A stretch of DNA of 64,000 bases from an uncultured Planctomycetales bacterium (GCA_964612665.1 CAZTCI010000002.1:147659-211658); one strand, 5' to 3'; shown: positions 2,862 through 50,227, counted from the stretch's first letter. Program-made: numbers and translations. Notes: generated from the letters alone by a model not told the origin.

Positions 2862-3781
2862 AAAAAAGAGATCTTATTAGCATTAAGGAATTAACACCCC
2901 AAGAAATCATAGGACTTTTGGATTTGGCCCGGAAACTGAAAAAGGCCAAAGGCAAACGGACCAAAGATCTCGATGGCAAGTCCGTTGGGCTTTTGTTTCA
3001 AAAGCCCTCGAACCGTACCCGCGTTTCCTTTGAAGTCGCGGTGTGGCAACTCGGCGGCAATTGCATTTACTTAAGTCCCGAAGAAATTGATTTAGGCAAA
3101 CGCGAATCCGTCGCAGATGTTGCCAAGACATTGTCGCGTTATCTGGACTGTCTGGTCGCTCGGACGTTTACACACGCGGACATTTTAGATTTAGTTAAAT
3201 ATTCATCGATCCCAATCATTAACGGACTTTCGGATTTGTTTCATCCTTGTCAAGCGCTCGCGGATTTGCAGTCGGTGCGTGAACATTTCGGGAAATTAAA
3301 AGGAATTACACTCGCCTACATTGGCGACGGCAACAATGTCTGTCATTCCTTGATGCTCGGCTGCGCGCAAACTGGAATGCATATGCGCATGGCAACGCCT
3401 AAACAATACGAACCTTTAGAAGAAGTTATTAAAGCCGCTTACGCTATCGCCAAACAAACGGGCTCTAAGATTTCCTTTACAAATGATCCCAGAGAAGCAG
3501 TGAAAGACGTTCAAGTAATTTATTCAGATGTCTGGGTCAGCATGGGACAGGAATCTGAAACCAAACGCCGGCTCAAAGATTTTGAAGGATTTCAAATCGA
3601 TGACAAATTAGCCGCGCTCGCCGATAAAGATTATATCTTTATGCACTGCCTGCCAGCGCACCGGGGGCTGGAAGTTTCTTCCAGTATCATCGACGGGCCG
3701 CACTCAATTGTGTTTGACCAGGCGGAAAACCGGCTGCACGTGCAAAAAGCGATTTTAATATTTTTACTTCGAGGAAAATAA
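2858..3781 (+). CDS. argF: Ornithine carbamoyltransferase
   Basis: STRTRVSFE carbamoyl-phosphate binding motif and HCLP motif; start overlaps the argD stop. Confidence 0.85.
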   Translation: MKKRDLISIKELTPQEIIGLLDLARKLKKAKGKRTKDLDGKSVGLLFQKPSNRTRVSFEVAVWQLGGNCIYLSPEEIDLGKRESVADVAKTLSRYLDCLVARTFTHADILDLVKYSSIPIINGLSDLFHPCQALADLQSVREHFGKLKGITLAYIGDGNNVCHSLMLGCAQTGMHMRMATPKQYEPLEEVIKAAYAIAKQTGSKISFTNDPREAVKDVQVIYSDVWVSMGQESETKRRLKDFEGFQIDDKLAALADKDYIFMHCLPAHRGLEVSSSIIDGPHSIVFDQAENRLHVQKAILIFLLRGK

Positions 3782-4110
3782 TGATTGGATCGAAGGAAAA
3801 ACTGCAATTACCAAACGCTCTTATTGACGACATTGTTCATATTATTTCAAGACAGAAAAAAGTTCAAAGGATTGTGTTATTTGGATCCTGGGCGACTGGA
3901 ACAGCCAAGAAAACTTCTGATATTGATTTGGCCATTTTTGGAAAAGACTTAACTGATCTTGATTTGAGTTTAATAAAAGATGAATTGGAAGAAAAAGTTG
4001 AAACAGCATTAAAATTTGATGTTTTGCATTTTGATTCTTTAGTCAAAGAATCCTTAAAAAATGATATTTTAAACGAAGGTATCACAATTTATGAGCCCAA
4101 AGCGGATTAA
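3781..4110 (+). CDS. Minimal nucleotidyltransferase (MNT/MntA-like), antitoxin-type
   Basis: LFGSWATGTAKKTSDIDLAIF = GS-x9-DxD polymerase-beta nucleotidyltransferase motif; 109 aa; overlaps the argF stop. Confidence 0.7.
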   Translation: MIGSKEKLQLPNALIDDIVHIISRQKKVQRIVLFGSWATGTAKKTSDIDLAIFGKDLTDLDLSLIKDELEEKVETALKFDVLHFDSLVKESLKNDILNEGITIYEPKAD

Positions 4111-4510
4111 GCAACGGTTTAATGATTTTGATCATGCTTTAGAAAGGCTTAAAGAAGTCTTAAACGAAGATCCAAAGAAAACCAGTATTGTCGTCGATGC
4201 AACGATCAAAAGGTTTGAATTCACGTTTGAGTTATCTTGGAAACTGCTGCAGGTTGTTCTCGCTTTTGAGGCAATAGATGTGCAGACGCCTCGCGCCATT
4301 ATTAAAGAAGCATTTCAAAAAGGATTGATTCAAAATGGAGATGAGTGGATTCAAATGTTGGAAGACCGTAACAAAACGTCTCATATCTATGATGAGATTC
4401 AAGCTAATGCTATTTATCAGAAGATTAAAAACAAATATTGTAGCTTACTAGATGCATTACGTGTTCATATTAAGGCAATGATTCAGAATATTGATGGAGA
4501 ATTGAAATGA
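4091..4510 (+). CDS. HepT-like / HI0074-family nucleotidyltransferase substrate-binding (HEPN) protein
   Basis: 139 aa partner overlapping the MNT by 20 nt. R-x4-H HEPN motif (RNKTSH). Its stop overlaps the argG start (ATGA). Confidence 0.65.
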   Translation: MSPKRIKQRFNDFDHALERLKEVLNEDPKKTSIVVDATIKRFEFTFELSWKLLQVVLAFEAIDVQTPRAIIKEAFQKGLIQNGDEWIQMLEDRNKTSHIYDEIQANAIYQKIKNKYCSLLDALRVHIKAMIQNIDGELK

Positions 4511-5670
4511 AAAAAGTTGTTTTGGCTTATTCAGGCGGATTGGACACCTCCTGCGCGATCAAATGGCTTGAGGACAAAGGGTATGAAGTCATCGCTTTTA
4601 TCGCTGACGTCGGGCAGAAGGAAGATTTTGAATCGATTAAAAAGCGGGCGATGTCGACCGGCGCTAAAAAAGTTTATGTGCTGGATTTGAAAAAAGAATT
4701 CGTAAACGATTATGTGTTTGCGGCGCTTAAATCCGGCGCGGTTTATGAACGGAAATATTTTATGGCGACTTCGTTGTCGCGGCCGATTATCGCCAAATAC
4801 CAAGTTCAAATCGCCCACAAAGAAAAAGCCAGCGCCATTGCTCACGGCTGCACGGGAAAAGGGAATGATCAAGTTCGGTTTGAAGTGACCGCCAAAATTC
4901 TTGATCCCAAGTTAGAAAATATCGCGCCCTTGCGGATTTGGGAATTTAAAACGCGCGATGAAGAAATTGATTACGCCCGGGCCAAAGGGATTCCGGTTGA
5001 TGTGACCAAAAAGAAACCGTATTCCATTGATAAAAATATTTACGGCATGAGTATCGAAGCTGGAATTTTAGAAGACCCGTGGATCGAACCGCCCGAGGAC
5101 ATTTATCAAATGACGGTCAGTCCCATGAAAGCGCCCAACAAACCAACCTACATCGAAATCGAATTTGAAAAAGGGATTCCAGTCAAACTCGACGGCAAAT
5201 CTTATAACGGCATCGATCTTTTGCAAAAGCTAAACGAAATCGGCGGCGCTAACGCGATCGGCCGGGTTGATATGGTTGAAAACCGTTTGGTCGGCATTAA
5301 ATCACGGGAGATCTATGAATGCCCGTCGGGCACAATCCTTTATACCGCTCATCAAGAATTAGAAGCGCTCGTCCTAGACCGGGAAACCATGCGCTACAAA
5401 CAAATGATTGCACTCAAGTACGCCGAAATTATTTACTACGGCCTCTGGGAAACGCCGCTTAAAAAACAATTAGACGCTTACATCAATAAGACGCAAGAAA
5501 ACGTAAGTGGCACCATTCGGTTGAAGCTTTATAAAGGGAATTGTGAAGTGGTGGGGCGCAAGTCGAAGTTTTCGAGATATAAAGAGGAACTGGCAACTTA
5601 CGGTGCAAAAGATATATTTGATCAAAAGCTGTCGGAAGGGTTTATTAGAATTTTTGGGATGCCATATTAA
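4507..5670 (+). CDS. argG: Argininosuccinate synthase
   Basis: PP-loop AYSGGLDTS and conserved ArgG blocks throughout. Confidence 0.9.
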   Translation: MKKVVLAYSGGLDTSCAIKWLEDKGYEVIAFIADVGQKEDFESIKKRAMSTGAKKVYVLDLKKEFVNDYVFAALKSGAVYERKYFMATSLSRPIIAKYQVQIAHKEKASAIAHGCTGKGNDQVRFEVTAKILDPKLENIAPLRIWEFKTRDEEIDYARAKGIPVDVTKKKPYSIDKNIYGMSIEAGILEDPWIEPPEDIYQMTVSPMKAPNKPTYIEIEFEKGIPVKLDGKSYNGIDLLQKLNEIGGANAIGRVDMVENRLVGIKSREIYECPSGTILYTAHQELEALVLDRETMRYKQMIALKYAEIIYYGLWETPLKKQLDAYINKTQENVSGTIRLKLYKGNCEVVGRKSKFSRYKEELATYGAKDIFDQKLSEGFIRIFGMPY

Positions 5671-5673
5671 GTG

Positions 5674-5714
5674 ATAAAGAAGTAGAGAAGTAAGAGGTAG
5701 AGATGTAGAGAAGG
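5674..5714 (+). repeat. GTAGAGAAG-unit repeat (family 2), one copy immediately after the argG stop
   Basis: aaagaagtagagaagtaagaggtagagatgtagagaagg. A related palindromic copy lies at 59855-59957, and a partial inverted copy at 6283-6300. Confidence 0.5.
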
Positions 5715-5739
5715 CGCGTTGGCAAACGCTTAACCGAAC

Positions 5740-6261
5740 ATGGTGCTGTCAAAAGAAGAAAAATTATTTCGACGAATTTTTGGGAAATTGAAACCAATTG
5801 AATTTAATGTTTGGTTTGATGGCACCCGTATTGTTCTTCTGATAAGTAATTCATTTAAGATTACAATGCTTTTTACCAAGGCCCAATGGATTAGCTTTAA
5901 AACAACAATGAGTAAAACTATTGATTCAACCATATACTCTGAAGACGACATAGGTTGTAGTGGCATTGATGTTTTAAAAGGAGAAATATATTTTTATAAT
6001 TTAAAAATTCAGCAAAAAATTTATGAGGTTTCAAAAAGCAGGGACATTGGTCAAAAAGAATTTAAGAAGATTAAGCAGAAACAGCGTGACATAAAGAAGC
6101 ATCGGCTTACAAAACAGATTTTGTTTAAGATTGGAGAAAATGTTGAGGTTGATGTTCCTCGTCGAAAGTTTACAAAGTTTAGGAATTTCATACTGGCTGC
6201 AGAAACTCAAACAAGTATTGATCGAGATCAAAAGAATAGATCATTAGAGAAAGTGAAATAA
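5740..6261 (+). CDS. Hypothetical Lys-rich protein (173 aa) in an AT-rich insert between argG and argH
   Basis: Long ORF with no recognisable domain; local AT content clearly higher than the flanking arg genes; flanked by family-2 repeat fragments. Confidence 0.35.
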   Translation: MVLSKEEKLFRRIFGKLKPIEFNVWFDGTRIVLLISNSFKITMLFTKAQWISFKTTMSKTIDSTIYSEDDIGCSGIDVLKGEIYFYNLKIQQKIYEVSKSRDIGQKEFKKIKQKQRDIKKHRLTKQILFKIGENVEVDVPRRKFTKFRNFILAAETQTSIDRDQKNRSLEKVK

Positions 6262-6322
6262 ATGAGATCTCTGCCTGTTGCTTTTCTACTTCTTATTTCT
6301 AACAAATAAAGGACAACCAAAC

Positions 6323-7669
6323 ATGACCAAACTCTGGGGCGGTCGATTTAGTAAAAAGATTAATCCGCTTGTTGACGACTTCACCAAATCTATCCATATC
6401 GACCAAAAACTCGCCTACTGCGATGTCTGGGGGTCGTTGTTTCATATTGATGTGCTCAAGGAAGCCAAGCTTTTGACAAAAGAGGAATATCAGAAGCTCC
6501 ACGATGGTCTGCACAAAATTCTAGATTCCATCCAAAACGGATCCTTTAAACCGGATTTATCCAGCGAAGACATTCACACCAACATTCAGAATGTATTAGA
6601 GAAGAAAGTCGGCGAAGTTGCACTCAAACTTCATACCTGCCGGTCGCGTAACGACCAGATTGTTTTTGATATGAAGTTATACTGCCGGCTTGAGCTTAAT
6701 CGTGTGCTAGAAATTTTAGATGGTTGCAAAAAAAGTTTGTACGCGTTGGCTGACAAGAACAAATCGTTATACATGCCGGGGTACACGCATCTGCAGCACG
6801 CGATCCCGATTCACATCGGAGATTATTTGATGGCGTATGTTGAGATGCTCAATCAAGATGAACGGCGGCTGACGCATATTCAAGATAATATTAATTTAAC
6901 GATGGGCTCGGGCGCTTTGGCTGGAACGTTTATTGAAGCTGAGCATTACAATCAGGCGATGAAATCTGCGGCGGTTGAATTAGGTATTGTGAAACCATCA
7001 ACGAATTCCATTTATACGGTAAGCGACCGGGATTTTATTCTTGAAATTTTAAGTGCGCTTGCGATTGTGGGGATGCATTTGTCGCGGCTGGCTGAGGATT
7101 TTATTCTTTGGTCGACGAAAGAATTTGATTTTATCGACATTGATGACGCTTTCTGCACGGGAAGTTCGCTCATGCCGCAAAAGAAAAACCCGGATGTCCT
7201 TGAATTGATCAGAGGCTATAGCGGACGGTTGTACGGCAACCTGGTCAATATGTTGGTTCTGATGAAAGGCCTGCCGCTTTCCTACAACCGGGACATGCAG
7301 CACGACAAAGAACCGCTGTTTGATTCGTTATCCGTGGTTGAAAACGAACTGAAAGTATTAACCGAGCTGCTTAAAAATGTTTCCTTCAAAAAAGAAACGC
7401 TTGCCAAACAGCTCGCCGATGAATGTCTTTATGCAACGGACATGGCCGATCATCTCGTCCAAAACGGGGTTGCCTTTAAACAAGCGCATCACATCATCGG
7501 CCGGTTAATCCATTATAAACTTCAAACCAAAAATGAAATTGTATCGATGAGTAAAGAAGAGCTGGTGCAATTTCATCCGGCTTTAACACCATCGATTGTG
7601 CAAAAAATTATTGATCCGGCTTTCTCGGTTGGTTCCAAAAAATCTATTCGGCGTAAAAAAGGAAAATAG
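6323..7669 (+). CDS. argH: Argininosuccinate lyase
   Basis: MTKLWGGRFSK N-terminus and fumarate-lyase signature region (GSSLMPQKKNPD). RBS aaaggac upstream of 6323. Confidence 0.9.
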   Translation: MTKLWGGRFSKKINPLVDDFTKSIHIDQKLAYCDVWGSLFHIDVLKEAKLLTKEEYQKLHDGLHKILDSIQNGSFKPDLSSEDIHTNIQNVLEKKVGEVALKLHTCRSRNDQIVFDMKLYCRLELNRVLEILDGCKKSLYALADKNKSLYMPGYTHLQHAIPIHIGDYLMAYVEMLNQDERRLTHIQDNINLTMGSGALAGTFIEAEHYNQAMKSAAVELGIVKPSTNSIYTVSDRDFILEILSALAIVGMHLSRLAEDFILWSTKEFDFIDIDDAFCTGSSLMPQKKNPDVLELIRGYSGRLYGNLVNMLVLMKGLPLSYNRDMQHDKEPLFDSLSVVENELKVLTELLKNVSFKKETLAKQLADECLYATDMADHLVQNGVAFKQAHHIIGRLIHYKLQTKNEIVSMSKEELVQFHPALTPSIVQKIIDPAFSVGSKKSIRRKKGK

Positions 7670-8936: not shown

Positions 8937-9533
8937 ATGAACAAATTAGACTATAAAAAATTCTTGGAGGCCTACAGAATTACAACTGGCAAATCTTCTT
9001 CAAAAAATAACCAAAGAAAGGCCTTTGAACTTTGGCAAGAGCTGGCTAAAAAATATGTCCGTTCGGCTTTTTATTTAGGGGTTTGTTATGACCAGGGATT
9101 TGGAATCAATAAAAATTTGAAGAAAGCATTTGAATGGTATAAAGTCGCCGGTGATGACGGACACTTAGAGGCAATGTATAATTTGTTCCTCATGTATCGC
9201 GATGGTGTAGGAGTGAAGAGAAATAATAGATTGGCCTTAAAGTGGTTAAATATGGCAGCAGAAAGAGGAGATGCTTCAGCAATTGGGGATCTCGGTTATT
9301 GCTATCATGAAGGTAAATTGCTTTCTAAAAATTTGACCAAGGCAGCAACTCTTTATCATCGAGCAGCGCAGATGGGTGATGTGAAATCCCAATGGAATTT
9401 AGCTTTGTGCTATCTATCGGGTGATGGAATTCGACTACCATCTGAACGCTGGGGAAAATATTGGTTAACAAAAGCTGCAAAAAGTGGACACGTCAAGGCC
9501 ACAAAAAAACTGAGAGAATATATCAAGAAGTAA
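8937..9533 (+). CDS. Sel1-repeat (TPR-like) protein
   Basis: Four or five repeats of the type AxxWYxKAAxQGxxxAQxxLGxxY. Confidence 0.6.
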   Translation: MNKLDYKKFLEAYRITTGKSSSKNNQRKAFELWQELAKKYVRSAFYLGVCYDQGFGINKNLKKAFEWYKVAGDDGHLEAMYNLFLMYRDGVGVKRNNRLALKWLNMAAERGDASAIGDLGYCYHEGKLLSKNLTKAATLYHRAAQMGDVKSQWNLALCYLSGDGIRLPSERWGKYWLTKAAKSGHVKATKKLREYIKK

Positions 9534-9542
9534 TGAAATAAA

Positions 9543-9905
9543 ATGCAGCAAGGAGAAAGAATTTCGAGATTTTATAAAAAGGTATTTATGACTTCGAAAG
9601 ACTATAAAATTGCTAGGGAATTGAAACTCAAATTAAATAAAATTGTTCCGCTTATTGATTTTCGGGTTTTCGGCTCAAGGGCCCGAGGGGATGCTCAAAA
9701 GGATTCTGATATGGATGTATTTATTGAAGTGCCTAGGTTAAATAAAAATTTGAAAAAAAGAATTTTACACGTGACTTGGGAAGTAAGTTTTAAATATCTT
9801 ATTGTTATTTCAAGTTTGATTTTTTCCCAAGAAGAGGTCGAAAAGTCTCCGTTGAGAGCCTCCCAAATAATAAGAAATATTTTCGAAGAAGGAATAAAAG
9901 TGTGA
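9543..9905 (+). CDS. Minimal nucleotidyltransferase (MNT) domain protein
   Basis: VFGSRARGDAQKDSDMDVFIE motif. The start may be the internal ATG at 9588, which has a better RBS. Confidence 0.65.
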   Translation: MQQGERISRFYKKVFMTSKDYKIARELKLKLNKIVPLIDFRVFGSRARGDAQKDSDMDVFIEVPRLNKNLKKRILHVTWEVSFKYLIVISSLIFSQEEVEKSPLRASQIIRNIFEEGIKV

Positions 9906-10294
9906 CGGACTTAGAATCATTATTTCATTTTAGAATACAGCAGGCTGAAGAAACACTTCAAGATGCCCAGAAACTGATTAAATCAGGGGCAACGCCGCGT
10001 TCAATTACTAATCGAGCTTATTATGCTGTCTTTTATGCCATCTTAGCGCTTCTTATTAAGGAAAACATAGCGCTGAAGACCTCAAAGCACTCCGGCGTTA
10101 TTGCTGTTTTTAACAAAGAATTTGTCAAGACGAAGAAATTTGAAAAACACTATTCAGAGATTGTTCATTATTTATTTAGGGCCCGACAAGAAGTTGATTA
10201 TAAAGATTTTGTCAACCCATTATTGGAAGATGCCGAAGAAAATTTAAAACTTGCTAAAGAGTTTGTTCAACAGGTTAAAAAGTTTATTGGATAA
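9902..10294 (+). CDS. HEPN domain protein, partner of the preceding MNT
   Basis: HEPN helix RAYYAVFYAILALL and an R-x4-DY motif; 4-nt overlap with the MNT gene. Confidence 0.6.
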   Translation: MTDLESLFHFRIQQAEETLQDAQKLIKSGATPRSITNRAYYAVFYAILALLIKENIALKTSKHSGVIAVFNKEFVKTKKFEKHYSEIVHYLFRARQEVDYKDFVNPLLEDAEENLKLAKEFVQQVKKFIG

Positions 10295-12003: not shown

Positions 12004-12719
12004 TCAAACTCGCGGTCAGCGGCGCGTTAGGCCGCATGGGGCAGCGTATCACTCACTTAGCATCAGAAGACAAAACTTTTAAAATCACAACTCTCCTCGA
12101 GAACGCCAACCATCCGCGACTTTCCGAAACCTCGCACGAACGGACCATTGCAACCAATCCTTCCTCATTAAAGGGATCACAAGTTTTAATTGAATTCACC
12201 TCACCCCAAGCTACCCTCGAACATCTCGATGCCTGTTTAAAATATAAAGTCAAAATGGTCATCGGCACAACGGGTTTTTCCGATACCGAAATCCGCCAAA
12301 TCAAAAAAGCTTCTCAGAAGATTCCCATCGTCTTTTCCTCTAATATGTCAGTTGGCGTCAATCTTGTCTTTAAACTGCTTAAAGAAGCCGCTTCGACCTT
12401 GGGTTCTGATTACAAAATTAAAATTGTCGAAGGGCATCACATCCACAAAAAAGACGCGCCGTCCGGCACCGCCAAAACCATGGCGCAGGTGATTGAAGAT
12501 AATTCCAAACATAAAGTCAGCGACATCAAATCCATCCGCGAAGGCGAAATCATCGGCGATCACGATGTCGTTTTTGAAAGTGATGTGGATGTCATCAAAA
12601 TCTTTCATCACGCCAAGACCCGCGATATTTTTGCAAAAGGATCTATCGTTGCTGCGAAGTTTGTTGCTAAGAAAACGAAGGGACTATTCAATATGCAGGA
12701 TGTGCTTGGACTGAAATAG
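12000..12719 (+). CDS. dapB: 4-hydroxy-tetrahydrodipicolinate reductase
   Basis: N-terminal Rossmann fold (AVSGALGRMG) and EGHHxHKKDAPSGTA motif. Confidence 0.85.
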   Translation: MIKLAVSGALGRMGQRITHLASEDKTFKITTLLENANHPRLSETSHERTIATNPSSLKGSQVLIEFTSPQATLEHLDACLKYKVKMVIGTTGFSDTEIRQIKKASQKIPIVFSSNMSVGVNLVFKLLKEAASTLGSDYKIKIVEGHHIHKKDAPSGTAKTMAQVIEDNSKHKVSDIKSIREGEIIGDHDVVFESDVDVIKIFHHAKTRDIFAKGSIVAAKFVAKKTKGLFNMQDVLGLK

Positions 12720-12748
12720 GTGTTAGGTGTCAGGTTTTAGGTGTTAAG
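12717..12748 (+). repeat. TAGGTGT heptamer repeat element (family 1), overlapping the dapB stop
   Basis: taggtgttaggtgtcaggttttaggtgttaag. Near-identical to an inverted copy at 61199-61236. Confidence 0.55.
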
Positions 12749-12771: not shown

Positions 12772-12915
12772 ATGATTTCTCCTAAAAAGCAAATGACAAA
12801 AATTATAAAAGAACAGCCGGATAATAGCTCCTATGAAGAAATTTTAAAAGAATTAGCTTTCGCTCGAATGGTTGAACGCGGGTTGGATGATTCGAGAAAA
12901 AAAGACAGTAAGTAA
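12772..12915 (+). CDS. Small hypothetical ORF (47 aa), antitoxin-like charged helical peptide
   Basis: ATG-to-stop ORF below the track cutoff, MISPKKQMTKIIKEQPDNSSYEEILKELAFARMVERGLDDSRKKDSK. Function unknown. Confidence 0.25.
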   Translation: MISPKKQMTKIIKEQPDNSSYEEILKELAFARMVERGLDDSRKKDSK

Positions 12916-16332: not shown

Positions 16333-16344
16333 GTTTTTAAATAT

Positions 16345-16423
16345 GATTACACCGATTTTGAAGAGATTACACAGATACGAGGCTTCTAAATATCTGTGAA
16401 ATCAAAATTTAATCTGTGTCATC
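16345..16423 (+). promoter_or_regulatory. Four phased copies of GAT-N-ACAC-N-GAT (two direct, two inverted, 20 bp apart) upstream of 16471
   Basis: gattacaccgat (16345), gattacacagat (16365), atctgtgaaatc (16392), atctgtgtcatc (16412). Confidence 0.35.
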
Positions 16424-16470
16424 AAATTTAAAAACAAATTTTAACAACAAACGGAGGGAGGTGATAAGGT

Positions 16471-16780: not shown

Positions 16781-16953
16781 TTCTTATTTAATGACCAATC
16801 ACCAAACTCCAAATTGTAAATAAATTTCAAATCCAAATTTTTCAAAATATCAAACGGCAAGTTTGAAACATTGGAATTTTAAATTTGGTTCTTATTTGAA
16901 ATTTGGTGCTTGATGCTTGGATTTTAGACGTTGTTTTTCTAAAAGTTAAGTAT

Positions 16954-50117: not shown

Positions 50118-50131
50118 AACTTAAGAATTTG

Positions 50132-50188
50132 ACGCGGATTATCGCAGATTACACACGGATCAACGCAGATATCCGCGATAATCCGCGT
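50132..50188 (+). repeat. Perfect 14-bp inverted repeat (acgcggattatcgc / gcgataatccgcgt) with a 29-nt loop, between aqpZ and tpx
   Basis: Read directly. ATCCGCG occurs three times, phased ~10 nt apart. Confidence 0.5.
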
Positions 50189-50227
50189 TAGAATAATTTT
50201 TCAATTGAAAGAAAGGAGAAGTTTGAA

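What the first reader, a model, noticed from the sequence alone, without database searches (positions are those of the whole stretch)
5671..6322. AT-rich unknown 173-aa ORF inserted between argG and argH, flanked by GTAGAGAAG repeat units that also form a palindromic element upstream of ilvB
Seen: argG and argH are normally adjacent. Here a ~650-bp segment of visibly lower GC content carries a Lys-rich ORF with no recognisable domain. It starts right after a repeat made of gtagagaag / gtaaga units (5674-5714) and ends near a partial inverted copy (ttttctacttctt at 6283-6295). The same repeat family forms a ~100-bp imperfect palindrome at 59855-59957, directly upstream of the ilvB start. Inference: a MITE-like family of elements that can carry cargo, or a family of structured intergenic RNAs.
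Basis: partly seen in the sequence, partly recalled or inferred. Interest (0 to 1): 0.55.

Follow-up and report, generated by a model that had tools for sequence, protein, structure and literature searches.

The report
Gene-carrying hairpin cassette between argG and argH
A small foreign gene sits in the loop of a long tandem-repeat hairpin between two arginine-synthesis genes of an uncultured Omnitrophota bacterium, built like the 'intervening sequences' known from bacterial ribosomal RNA but lying in a messenger RNA spacer and carrying a different gene.

Summary
Between argG (4507-5670) and argH (6323-7669) lies a 552-nt AT-rich insert holding one intact 173-aa gene. It is bracketed by a purine-rich arm (5672-5714) and a pyrimidine-rich arm (6267-6300), both built of 7/8-nt tandem repeats. 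In the sense RNA the arms pair over about 33 bp (-44 kcal/mol). The same arm family forms an empty hairpin at 59854-59949.

The organism is a Candidatus Omnitrophota MAG. Six relatives keep argG and argH 36-128 nt apart with no ORF. All four whose spacer DNA could be read have a stem-loop right after the argG stop, and three of those are built from unrelated 7-nt units.

ORF173 is foreign (GC3 0.28 against about 0.50) and basic (pI 9.9). Only four relatives were found in the protein databases searched. They sit at unrelated loci and have no flanking arms.

Arms of the same kind enclose small genes in other MAGs (L003, L010, L002). There the gene is always PF05635, the protein encoded inside 23S rRNA intervening sequences (IVS).

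Best reading: an IVS-like hairpin cassette in an mRNA spacer, with a new cargo gene. Cleavage by RNase III and mobility are inferred, not shown. I rate it a new variant of a known kind, of moderate to high interest.

The parts
4507..5670 (+). argG (argininosuccinate synthase), the upstream cistron. Its stop codon is 1 nt before the 5' arm.
   Evidence: ORF list. 100-87% identical ArgG proteins carrying PF00764/PF20979.
5672..5714 (+). 5' arm: a purine-rich tandem repeat (GTAGAGAA / GTAAGAG units, period 8/7, 15-nt super-unit). It has no structure of its own.
   Evidence: TRF 5677-5713. 27-mer match at 5677-5703. Folded alone, MFE is 0.
5715..6266 (+). Loop: a 552-nt AT-rich foreign insert with no terminator and no distinctive promoter.
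   Evidence: GC 0.30-0.33. Promoter and terminator scan at background level. Absent from the same junction in relatives.
5740..6261 (+). ORF173: an intact gene for a basic (pI 9.9) 173-aa protein of a very small uncharacterised family. No Shine-Dalgarno sequence precedes it.
   Evidence: No Pfam, PHROG, PADLOC, NCBIfam or PDB match.
6267..6300 (+). 3' arm: pyrimidine-rich and complementary to 5677-5704. Together with outer bases it forms about 33 pairs with the 5' arm.
   Evidence: the repeat finder pair I9. The long-range stem appears in both the MFE and the centroid fold of 5660-6325. Duplex energy is -44.4 kcal/mol against -19.8 +/- 3.5 for shuffled arms.
6323..7669 (+). argH (argininosuccinate lyase), the downstream cistron. 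Its RBS (AAAGGA, 6308) follows the 3' arm.
   Evidence: PF00206, PF14698.
59854..59949 (+). Empty (hairpin-only) copy of the same arm family. Arms 59859-59894 and 59909-59944, 14-nt loop. It lies in the divergent spacer between ilvB (minus strand) and a ThiI/MnmA-like gene (plus strand).
   Evidence: + strand fold -47.6 kcal/mol (z = -8.5) against -32.3 on the - strand. TRF period 8/15 in both arms. 27-mer matches.

Best explanation
The segment 5671-6322 is an IVS-like hairpin cassette sitting in an intercistronic mRNA spacer.

Two inverted arms made of 7/8-nt tandem repeats bracket a 552-nt foreign, AT-rich insert that carries one small gene (ORF173). The arms belong to a dispersed family of tandem-repeat hairpins that occupy spacers between genes in Omnitrophota and PVC-group genomes. 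Most copies are empty hairpins, like the one at 59854-59949. Some enclose a small gene.

The cassette has no terminator, so it is most likely transcribed as part of the arg/lys operon message (inferred). In that predicted RNA the arms pair over about 33 bp and close the whole ORF into a loop.

Inferred mechanism: a stem this long is a substrate for RNase III, as in rRNA intervening sequences. Cleavage would remove the cassette, or separate the argG and argH messages. That would explain how selfish DNA is tolerated inside an essential operon and why the in-loop gene needs no ribosome-binding site.

Spread of the family by horizontal or intragenomic transfer is inferred from its distribution. 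The mobility mechanism is unknown.
For: Shown:
1. The arms pair. 26-27 of 27-28 core positions and 33 pairs in all form, at -44.4 kcal/mol against -19.8 +/- 3.5 for shuffled arms. The long-range stem is present in both the MFE and the centroid fold.
2. The insert is private to this genome. Six relatives with ArgG 80-87% identical have argG-argH gaps of 36-128 nt and no ORF.
3. All four relatives with readable DNA have a stem-loop directly after the argG stop. Three are built of other 7-nt units: a CCCCAGT type in L013, GTGTCAC in L014 and GTCACAA in L052. L051 has a short GC stem.
4. The cargo is foreign. GC3 is 0.276 against 0.50. Its four homologues are at unrelated loci, one of them in the same MAG as L013 but on another contig.
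5. The family is dispersed. The 27-mer finds hairpins between stop codons and the next RBS in several MAGs. Some carry nested hairpins of another unit family, and a 190-bp composite recurs in four contigs.
6. A gene in the loop recurs. L003 has fabH | arm | PF05635 ORF | arm | fabD, and the RNA fold closes a 23-bp stem. L010 has arm | PF05635 ORF | arm. L002 has moxR | arm | PF05635 ORF | arm | DUF58. All these ORFs are 10-20 GC points below their flanks.
7. The Coxiella IVS has the same anatomy. It is 428-444 nt with a 28-bp terminal inverted-repeat stem, an AG-rich stretch plus tandem heptamers on the 5' side, an ORF with a poor SD in the loop, and excision by RNase III in mid-stem (PMC4990558).
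8. Sense-strand pairing is stronger than antisense in 3 of 4 gene-bearing cassettes: window -44.4 against -25.8, and L010 -44.6 against -32.0. It is also stronger in 10-11 of 14 empty hairpins that lie between co-directional genes.
Against: - There is no expression or cleavage data. RNase III action is pure inference, and no rnc signature lies in the 64-kb window.
- ORF173 homologues elsewhere have no flanking arms. ORF173 may therefore simply have landed in a resident hairpin rather than being part of a travelling unit.
- I saw no target-site duplication and no transposase or integrase.
- The sense-strand G-U excess could come from GT skew or C-to-T bias on the leading or coding strand rather than from selection. 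L014, L042 and L025 fold better on the antisense strand.
- The loci used for comparison were fetched with the arm pattern. That inflates the apparent association, although the L010 and L002 cassettes lie 1-4 kb from the match that fetched them.
- Only two family copies occur in 64 kb.
Confidence: 0.55

Rival explanations
1. Accidental capture. A resident intercistronic hairpin (a structural operon feature or a simple-sequence palindrome) broke at its centre. The break was repaired with a stray piece of foreign DNA that happened to carry ORF173. The arms and the gene are not a unit, and nothing is processed or mobile.
For: Relatives already have a hairpin at this junction. ORF173 homologues have no arms. 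The arms are asymmetric: the 5' arm has an extra unit (5705-5714) with no partner, as expected after loss of the palindrome centre. Other junctions of the same operon have also accreted foreign small genes without any hairpin, namely MNT/HEPN at 3781-4510 and Sel1+MNT/HEPN at 8937-10294.
Against: The same geometry recurs with PF05635 genes in at least three other loci in two phyla, which is hard to get by accident. The arms still pair almost perfectly. The hairpin at this junction is of a different unit family in every relative, so whole-element turnover is the norm.
Confidence: 0.22
2. Autonomous element and its MITEs. ORF173 is the mobility protein of the GTAGAGAAG hairpin family, and the empty hairpins are its deletion derivatives.
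For: Terminal inverted repeats flank a single basic protein (pI 9.9), which could plausibly bind nucleic acid. Empty copies exist. Ralph and McClelland proposed the same for the IVS ORF, as quoted in PMC4990558.
Against: Four of five family members have no arms. The same arm family encloses an unrelated protein (PF05635) elsewhere; hhalign gives 0.2% probability of a relationship between the two. ORF173 has no transposase, HUH or DDE match and only one His, and no SD. The arm family is far more widespread than the five-member protein family.
Confidence: 0.05
3. The hairpins are host regulatory or stabilising RNA structures. They would act as barriers to 3' exonucleases, processing sites or translational couplers, like REP/BIME stem-loops in E. 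coli operons, and would be maintained by selection for structure only. The ORF is a passenger that the long-range stem lets the operon tolerate.
For: A stem-loop directly after the argG stop is present in all five genomes with DNA, despite non-homologous sequence. The usual position is between a stop codon and the next RBS. There is a sense-strand G-U excess.
Against: The same unit sequences recur at non-orthologous sites and in distant MAGs, which argues for dispersal rather than local evolution. Nested and composite copies exist. Some hairpins fold better on the antisense strand. This reading overlaps with the best explanation rather than excluding it.
Confidence: 0.15
4. The two arms are independent simple-sequence arrays that grew by slippage. 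Their complementarity is a by-product of low complexity.
For: Lone arms exist (12717-12746 in the window; L008, L026). Heptameric intergenic simple-sequence repeats are known to be over-represented in bacteria (PMC4692102).
Against: A pyrimidine-rich array on the sense strand occurs only as a partner of a purine arm. 26 of 27 positions pair in one fixed register, and no other site within 3.5 kb exceeds 20 of 27. Shuffled arms give -19.8 against -44.4 kcal/mol.
Confidence: 0.03

Closest known systems
Bacterial rRNA intervening sequences (IVS) with an S23p/PF05635 ORF (Coxiella burnetii, Leptospira, Brucella; PMC4990558)
   Same: An element of about 430-620 nt bordered by terminal inverted repeats that form a 28-33 bp stem. 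AG-rich tandem 7-nt repeats on the 5' side. A small ORF lies in the loop, in sense orientation, with a poor or absent SD. Distribution among relatives is sporadic. Sister cassettes with the same kind of arms (L003, L010, L002) carry the very PF05635 gene family.
   Different: It lies in an mRNA spacer (argG|argH) and not in helix 25 or 45 of 23S rRNA. The cargo is an unrelated protein family. RNase III excision has not been tested here. Both arms are entirely tandem repeats.
REP/BIME elements and REPtrons (a RAYT gene flanked by inverted REPs). REP/RAYT biology is from my own knowledge. The paper on GTAG- and CGTC-tagged palindromic repeats (PMC3733652) was seen only as a title and abstract.
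   Same: Dispersed extragenic palindromes between cistrons. Mosaic and nested arrangements occur. A gene is bracketed by inverted copies. The units contain GTAG.
   Different: The hairpins are 75-170 nt with arms made of tandem 7/8-nt units, not 20-40 nt single palindromes. The enclosed genes are not Y1/HUH transposases.
Intergenic heptameric simple-sequence repeats occurring as convergent (inverted) pairs: Xanthomonas GGGAATC (70-75 pairs), Nostoc GGGGA(C/T)T, Calothrix STRR (PMC4692102)
   Same: 7-nt tandem units. Intergenic, close to the 3' end of the upstream ORF. Paired in inverted orientation so that stem-loops can form. Length and sequence vary between relatives while the repeat type (single or inverted pair) is usually preserved.
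   Different: The units are not G-tract or G-quadruplex-forming. Several unit families coexist in one genome. Loops hold nested elements or genes, which that paper does not report.
MITEs
   Same: Terminal inverted repeats, small size, several copies, intergenic location, and the existence of a longer gene-bearing version.
   Different: No target-site duplication seen and no cognate transposase. The arms are internally repetitive, and the cargo genes are not transposases.
Integron gene cassettes / attC
   Same: Small, promoterless, often orphan genes associated with imperfect hairpin sites and inserted in the same orientation as the host transcript.
   Different: An attC is one self-folding site downstream of each gene and has RYYYAAC/GTTRRRY cores. 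Here two arms flank the gene and pair with each other, and the GTAGAGA family has no such cores.

Membership tests
rRNA-type intervening sequence (IVS) | Terminal inverted repeats form a long stem (about 20-28 bp or more) that closes the whole element | tested here: met
   33 pairs at -44.4 kcal/mol. The stem is present in both the MFE and the centroid fold.
rRNA-type intervening sequence (IVS) | Inserted in a 23S (or 16S) rRNA helix | tested here: not met
   It lies between argG and argH. The Rfam gathering-threshold scan of the window found only three tRNAs.
rRNA-type intervening sequence (IVS) | The loop ORF, when present, is S23p / PF05635 | tested here: not met
   ORF173 has no Pfam hit. 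hhalign against the PF05635 alignment gives 0.2% probability. The feature is met by the sister cassettes L003, L010 and L002.
rRNA-type intervening sequence (IVS) | Excised from the transcript by RNase III | not testable with these tools
   No transcript data. The expectation rests on stem length only.
rRNA-type intervening sequence (IVS) | Sporadic distribution among close relatives | tested here: met
   Absent from six relatives at this junction.
MITE | Terminal inverted repeats | tested here: met
MITE | Target-site duplication flanking each copy | tested here: inconclusive
   No shared direct repeat is visible at the outer edges of the copies at 5672/6300 and 59854/59949. No empty orthologous site was available for comparison.
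MITE | A related autonomous element encoding a transposase | tested here: not met
   The enclosed genes are ORF173 (no transposase domain) or PF05635. The rest of the genome could not be searched.
REP / REPtron | The gene flanked by inverted REPs is a RAYT (Y1 HUH transposase) | tested here: not met
   No PF01797 or other hit, and only one histidine in ORF173.
REP / REPtron | A short (20-40 nt) imperfect palindrome with a GTAG or CGTC tag | tested here: inconclusive
   GTAG occurs in each unit, but the elements are 75-170 nt tandem-repeat hairpins. The second and third unit families lack GTAG.
Paired intergenic heptameric simple-sequence repeats (Xanthomonas type) | Tandem units of about 7 nt, intergenic, in convergent pairs that can form a stem-loop | tested here: met
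   TRF periods of 7, 8 and 15 in both arms. Folds.
Paired intergenic heptameric simple-sequence repeats (Xanthomonas type) | G-tract units able to form G-quadruplexes | tested here: not met
   The units GTAGAGA and TAGGTGT have no GGG tracts.
Integron cassette | A single attC hairpin with RYYYAAC ... GTTRRRY cores downstream of the gene | tested here: not met
   The arms flank the gene and pair with each other. There are no core sites in 5672-5714 or 6267-6300.

The most novel reading that the evidence does not exclude
The classical 23S rRNA intervening sequences would be only the most visible members of a wider class of selfish 'hairpin cassettes'. Each has tandem-repeat inverted arms plus an exchangeable small gene in the loop. 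The class would also colonise intercistronic spacers of essential operons (arg, fab, moxR), where host RNase III renders it harmless. ORF173 would define a second cargo family beside PF05635. The empty tandem-repeat hairpins that litter Omnitrophota and PVC spacers would be the gene-less form of the same elements.
Probability: 0.35. Interest if true: 0.78.

Novelty: new variant of a known kind. Interest (0 to 1): 0.62.

Why it matters
The origin and function of bacterial IVS elements, and of the widespread PF05635 'four-helix-bundle' genes, have been open since 1990. [quoted passage not shown]

Here the same anatomy appears in protein-coding operons, with the same gene family in sister loci and a different gene in this window. 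This suggests that the hairpin, not the rRNA context or the particular protein, defines the element. It also makes the question testable in three ways:
- a census of arm-flanked small genes;
- RNase III mapping on mRNAs;
- comparison of filled and empty sites.

It also offers an explanation for how conserved biosynthetic operons in these reduced, uncultured bacteria can accumulate foreign genes between cistrons without being broken. Finally, it gives annotators a recognisable signature (tandem 7/8-nt inverted arms) for a class of repeats that is currently unannotated.

Tried and rejected
Searches that gave nothing:
- Function of ORF173. Pfam, PHROGs, PADLOC, NCBIfam and a PDB profile search gave nothing significant. 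AlphaFold2 reached pLDDT 44 with a single sequence and 55 with a four-sequence alignment, and Foldseek against the PDB gave no hit below E = 0.37. No fold can be assigned.
- Phage or plasmid origin. tblastn against phages and plasmids found no match, and a profile scan of IMG/VR found none. The two IMG/VR hits of the 27-mer are the same lysine-rich coding sequence seen in Bacillota contigs, so they are chance matches.
- Curated RNA families. Rfam at gathering threshold found only three tRNAs. At E <= 1 it found only sub-threshold matches of the 59854-59949 hairpin to generic miRNA-precursor models, which means only that it is a long hairpin.
- Terminator or attenuator reading. No terminator-like site lies in 5400-6500, and no U-tract follows the hairpins.

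Readings considered and rejected:
- ORF173 as a RAYT or transposase (no motifs), or as a remote PF05635 relative.
- Arms as a property of the ORF173 family. Three homologue loci have no flanking inverted repeat. A purine-rich stretch (GTAGGGAAGAAGTAG) upstream of the L017 copy is one-sided and may be chance.
- Integron attC. The TAGGTGT family contains GTTAGGT/ACCTAAC strings, but in the wrong order for an attC, and the GTAGAGA family has none.
- 'Purine arm first' as a marker of strand. It is uninformative, because the reverse complement of such a hairpin also starts with a purine arm. Only the G-U against A-C asymmetry carries strand information, and mutational skew can mimic it.

Limits and dead ends:
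- The window's own genome is not in the genome-contig collection, so no genome-wide census was possible.
- L044 looked like a second gene-in-loop case by arm distance. It is in fact two separate hairpins flanking a DUF192-like gene.

Full report
**1. The observation.**
argG ends at 5670 and the next gene of the pathway, argH, starts at 6323. Between them lies an open reading frame, 5740-6261, of 173 codons. GC content drops from 0.44-0.47 to 0.30-0.33 across 5700-6300. GC3 of the ORF is 0.276, against 0.50 in argG and argH.

Tandem Repeats Finder reports an array of period 8/15 at 5677-5713. The repeat finder pairs 5677-5704 with 6267-6294, 28 nt at 86% complementarity. Three of the four differences are G-U compatible on the + strand, so 26-27 positions pair.

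It has arms 59859-59894 and 59909-59944, a 14-nt loop, and 35 of 36 positions paired on the + strand. The arm at 5672-5712 and the arm at 59908-59948 agree at 35 of 41 positions. A degenerate 27-mer written from the arms hits only these four arms in 64 kb, even with three mismatches, with none expected by chance.

**2. Organism and synteny.**
The best named ArgG relatives are all Candidatus Omnitrophota. Six relatives with ArgG 80-87% identical keep the order argJ-argB-argD-argF-(variable)-argG-argH-lysA-dapF-dapA-dapB. Their argG-argH gaps are only 36-128 nt and hold no ORF. The gene is therefore an insertion private to this genome.

Wherever the DNA could be read, the short spacer holds a stem-loop directly after the argG stop:
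- L013: a 79-nt hairpin of CCCCAGT-like units.
- L014: GTGTCAC units.
- L052: GTCACAA units.
- L051: a plain 8-bp GC stem.

These are supported. A hairpin at this junction is therefore the rule, but its sequence is replaced from genome to genome.

**3. The gene.**
ORF173 is real. An open run of 175 codons in a 552-nt, 31% GC insert was never reached in 20,000 shuffles. It also has relatives. A full HMMER scan of 1.8 billion representatives and a profile search of 5.8 billion proteins together found four other members: P0122 to P0125, 116-165 aa, about 30% identical, with twelve invariant residues.

They lie at unrelated places:
- L015: after a dinB-like gene.
- L017: between a thiolase and a crotonase.
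- L019: on another contig of the very MAG that supplied L013.

All are much more AT-rich than their flanks. None has flanking inverted arms.

The protein is basic (pI 9.9). It matches nothing in Pfam, PHROGs, PADLOC, NCBIfam or the PDB. The structure models are of low confidence. The window copy is full length, but unlike P0124 it has no Shine-Dalgarno sequence.

**4. The arm family.**
The 27-mer was scanned against one genome per GTDB species and against JGI metagenomes. Apart from a lysine-rich coding sequence in Bacillota and phage contigs, which is a chance match, the hits are intergenic. They come from Omnitrophota MAGs (OFTM38, nDJH6bin14), from MAGs labelled Planctomycetales, from a Kiritimatiellia MAG, and from metagenome contigs.

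Most are hairpins of 75-170 nt placed between a stop codon and the RBS of the next gene. A few are lone purine arms on the sense strand (L008, L026).

Some loops hold a second hairpin made of another unit family. A roughly 190-bp composite of two such families recurs in four different contigs with unrelated flanks. This mosaic, dispersed arrangement resembles BIMEs (bacterial interspersed mosaic elements) as I know them.

The window itself holds a second family, (TAGGTGT)n. It forms a hairpin at 61156-61235 and a lone arm at 12717-12746.

**5. A gene in the loop is recurrent.**
Searching for distant partners of purine arms and for proteins in the fetched loci turned up three more cassettes with the geometry of the window:
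- L003: fabH stop | purine arm 597-655 | 118-aa ORF | pyrimidine arm 1077-1103 | fabD start. The RNA fold closes a 23-bp long-range stem. L037 is the same locus in a relative.
- L010 (Omnitrophota OFTM38): arm 311-365 | 130-aa ORF | arm 775-820.
- L002 (Kiritimatiellia): moxR | GTAATAG-type arm | 142-aa ORF | complementary arm | DUF58, with 63 pairs at -79 kcal/mol.

A second copy in L002 (6648-7076) is followed by a CTCCTAA array.

All four ORFs are PF05635/TIGR02436, the '23S rRNA intervening sequence protein' (E = 1e-24 to 1e-38). All are 10-20 GC points below their flanks. ORF173 is unrelated to them (hhalign probability 0.2%).

**6. Comparison with IVS.**
The Coxiella burnetii IVS is a 428-444-nt selfish element (PMC4990558). 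It has these features:
- It is bordered by inverted repeats that form a 28-bp stem.
- Its 5' side has an AG-rich stretch followed by tandem heptamers (GACAGAT) whose number varies between strains.
- An S23p (PF05635) ORF with a poor SD lies in the loop.

The window element shares every anatomical point except two. It lies in an mRNA spacer and not in 23S rRNA, and its ORF belongs to a different family. The sister cassettes differ from an IVS only in location. I found no paper in the searchable library that describes IVS-type cassettes in mRNA spacers. That is absence of evidence only.

**7. How it most likely works.**
Shown:
- The 5' arm has no structure of its own (MFE 0).
- It pairs with the 3' arm over 33 bp at -44.4 kcal/mol, against -19.8 +/- 3.5 for shuffled arms.
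- The pairing dominates the predicted fold of the whole 666-nt segment.
- No terminator or distinctive promoter lies inside, so the cassette should be co-transcribed with the operon.

Inferred: a near-perfect duplex of more than two helical turns is a substrate for RNase III, as I know of the enzyme and as PMC4990558 shows for the IVS. Cleavage would detach the ORF-bearing loop and split the argG and argH messages. Empty hairpins would act as processing sites or as barriers to 3' exonucleases.

The sense strand pairs better than the antisense strand in the window (-44.4 against -25.8), in L010 and in L003, but not in L002. It also pairs better in 10-11 of 14 empty hairpins that lie between co-directional genes. 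This fits a role in RNA. However, GT skew or C-to-T bias on the leading or coding strand would give the same asymmetry, and L014, L042 and L025 go the other way.

Two points remain open. First, how the elements move. Second, whether arms and gene travel together or the gene enters a resident loop. The unit family differs at the argG|argH junction in every relative, which shows that whole hairpins turn over there. An arrival of 'arms plus gene' is therefore as plausible as insertion into an existing loop.

**8. Rival readings.**
These are accidental capture at a broken palindrome, ORF173 as the family's transposase, purely host-selected regulatory hairpins, and independent simple-sequence arrays. 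They are weighed in the rival section. The recurrence of the geometry with PF05635 genes is the main argument against accident. The lack of arms around ORF173 homologues is the main argument against a dedicated ORF173 element.

**9. Verdict.**
There is a dispersed hairpin family that can enclose genes and that folds in RNA. It does not meet the definition of a MITE. Its nearest described relative is the rRNA intervening sequence. Paired intergenic heptamer repeats of the Xanthomonas type (PMC4692102) and REP/BIME elements are looser analogues. I rate it a new variant of a known kind. Interest is moderate to high, because it ties an old puzzle (the origin of IVS and the role of PF05635) to a testable, wider class.

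Noticed in passing
window 3781-4510: A nucleotidyltransferase (MNT, PF18765/PF01909) and HEPN/NTase_sub_bind (PF08780) pair is wedged between argF and argG with ATGA stop-start overlaps. Its GC3 is 0.26-0.34 against about 0.50 in the host genes. Relatives carry different small genes at the same junction (BrnT plus a 72-aa ORF; DUF6968 plus a 135-aa ORF; a 308-aa unknown) or nothing. The junction is a hot spot for selfish small genes.
   Followed up: partly
window 8937-10294: A Sel1-repeat protein and a second MNT/HEPN pair lie between lysA and dapF. These two genes are adjacent in relatives L013 and L014.
   Followed up: partly
window 61156-61235 and 12717-12746: A second tandem-repeat hairpin family, (TAGGTGT)n. 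One copy is a hairpin ending 1 nt before the cydA start codon. The other is a lone arm overlapping the dapB stop, followed by a 47-aa ORF (12772-12915) with no Pfam hit.
   Followed up: partly
window 16333-16435, 16796-16912, 50128-50192, 58015-88, 63648-63736: Further long intergenic palindromes of other sequence families. 58046-58069 (ilvB|ilvN spacer) and 63645-63668 (after cydB) are 96% complementary to each other.
   Followed up: no
window 36086-36327: A complete tRNA-Thr(TGT) at 36157-36231 lies between an extra 5' half (36086-36121, 30 nt identical) and an extra 3' half (36285-36327, 92%) of a Thr-like tRNA. It looks as if a tRNA gene were split in its anticodon loop by a 163-nt insert that itself contains a whole tRNA-Thr. 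ARAGORN and Rfam call only the inner gene. Unexplained.
   Followed up: partly
window 37005-37077 and 43587-43659: A 73-nt repeat (71% identical) containing a GGCCTTTTCTC...GAGAAAAGGCC stem. Each copy lies just upstream of a gene. It may be a shared leader or regulatory RNA. Rfam found nothing at gathering threshold.
   Followed up: no
window 5683-5704 (L001, L053, L054): In the Logan assemblies of two runs (SRR12313478, SRR12313479) the contigs carrying argG stop at window 5704. This is exactly the inner edge of the paired part of the 5' arm. The contig carrying ORF173 starts at 5683. This suggests repeat-number or presence/absence heterogeneity in the population, or a coverage gap.
   Followed up: partly
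L044 5828-5925 (minus strand): The pyrimidine arm of a family-1 hairpin is in frame with a DUF192-like ORF and reads as its hydrophobic signal peptide with a lipobox (FFFTSYFLFLCFFSAGC). A repeat arm may have been exapted as coding sequence.
   Followed up: no
L024, L025, L031, L048 (AMWB02 metagenome contigs): A composite repeat of about 190 bp is conserved in four contigs with unrelated flanks. It is built of nested hairpins from two unit families (GCAAGAG/GTAAAGA outside, CAGATAC/CGGATAC inside). Further arrays (GACACTTT, CAGACGA) lie nearby.
   Followed up: partly
window 59993-60011: A short GC-rich stem (TCCCCGCGCAAGGGGA) followed by T-rich sequence on both strands lies between the 59854-59949 hairpin and the promoter-like sites of the + strand gene. 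On the + strand, hairpin plus terminator-like stem could mark the end of a small transcript.
   Followed up: no
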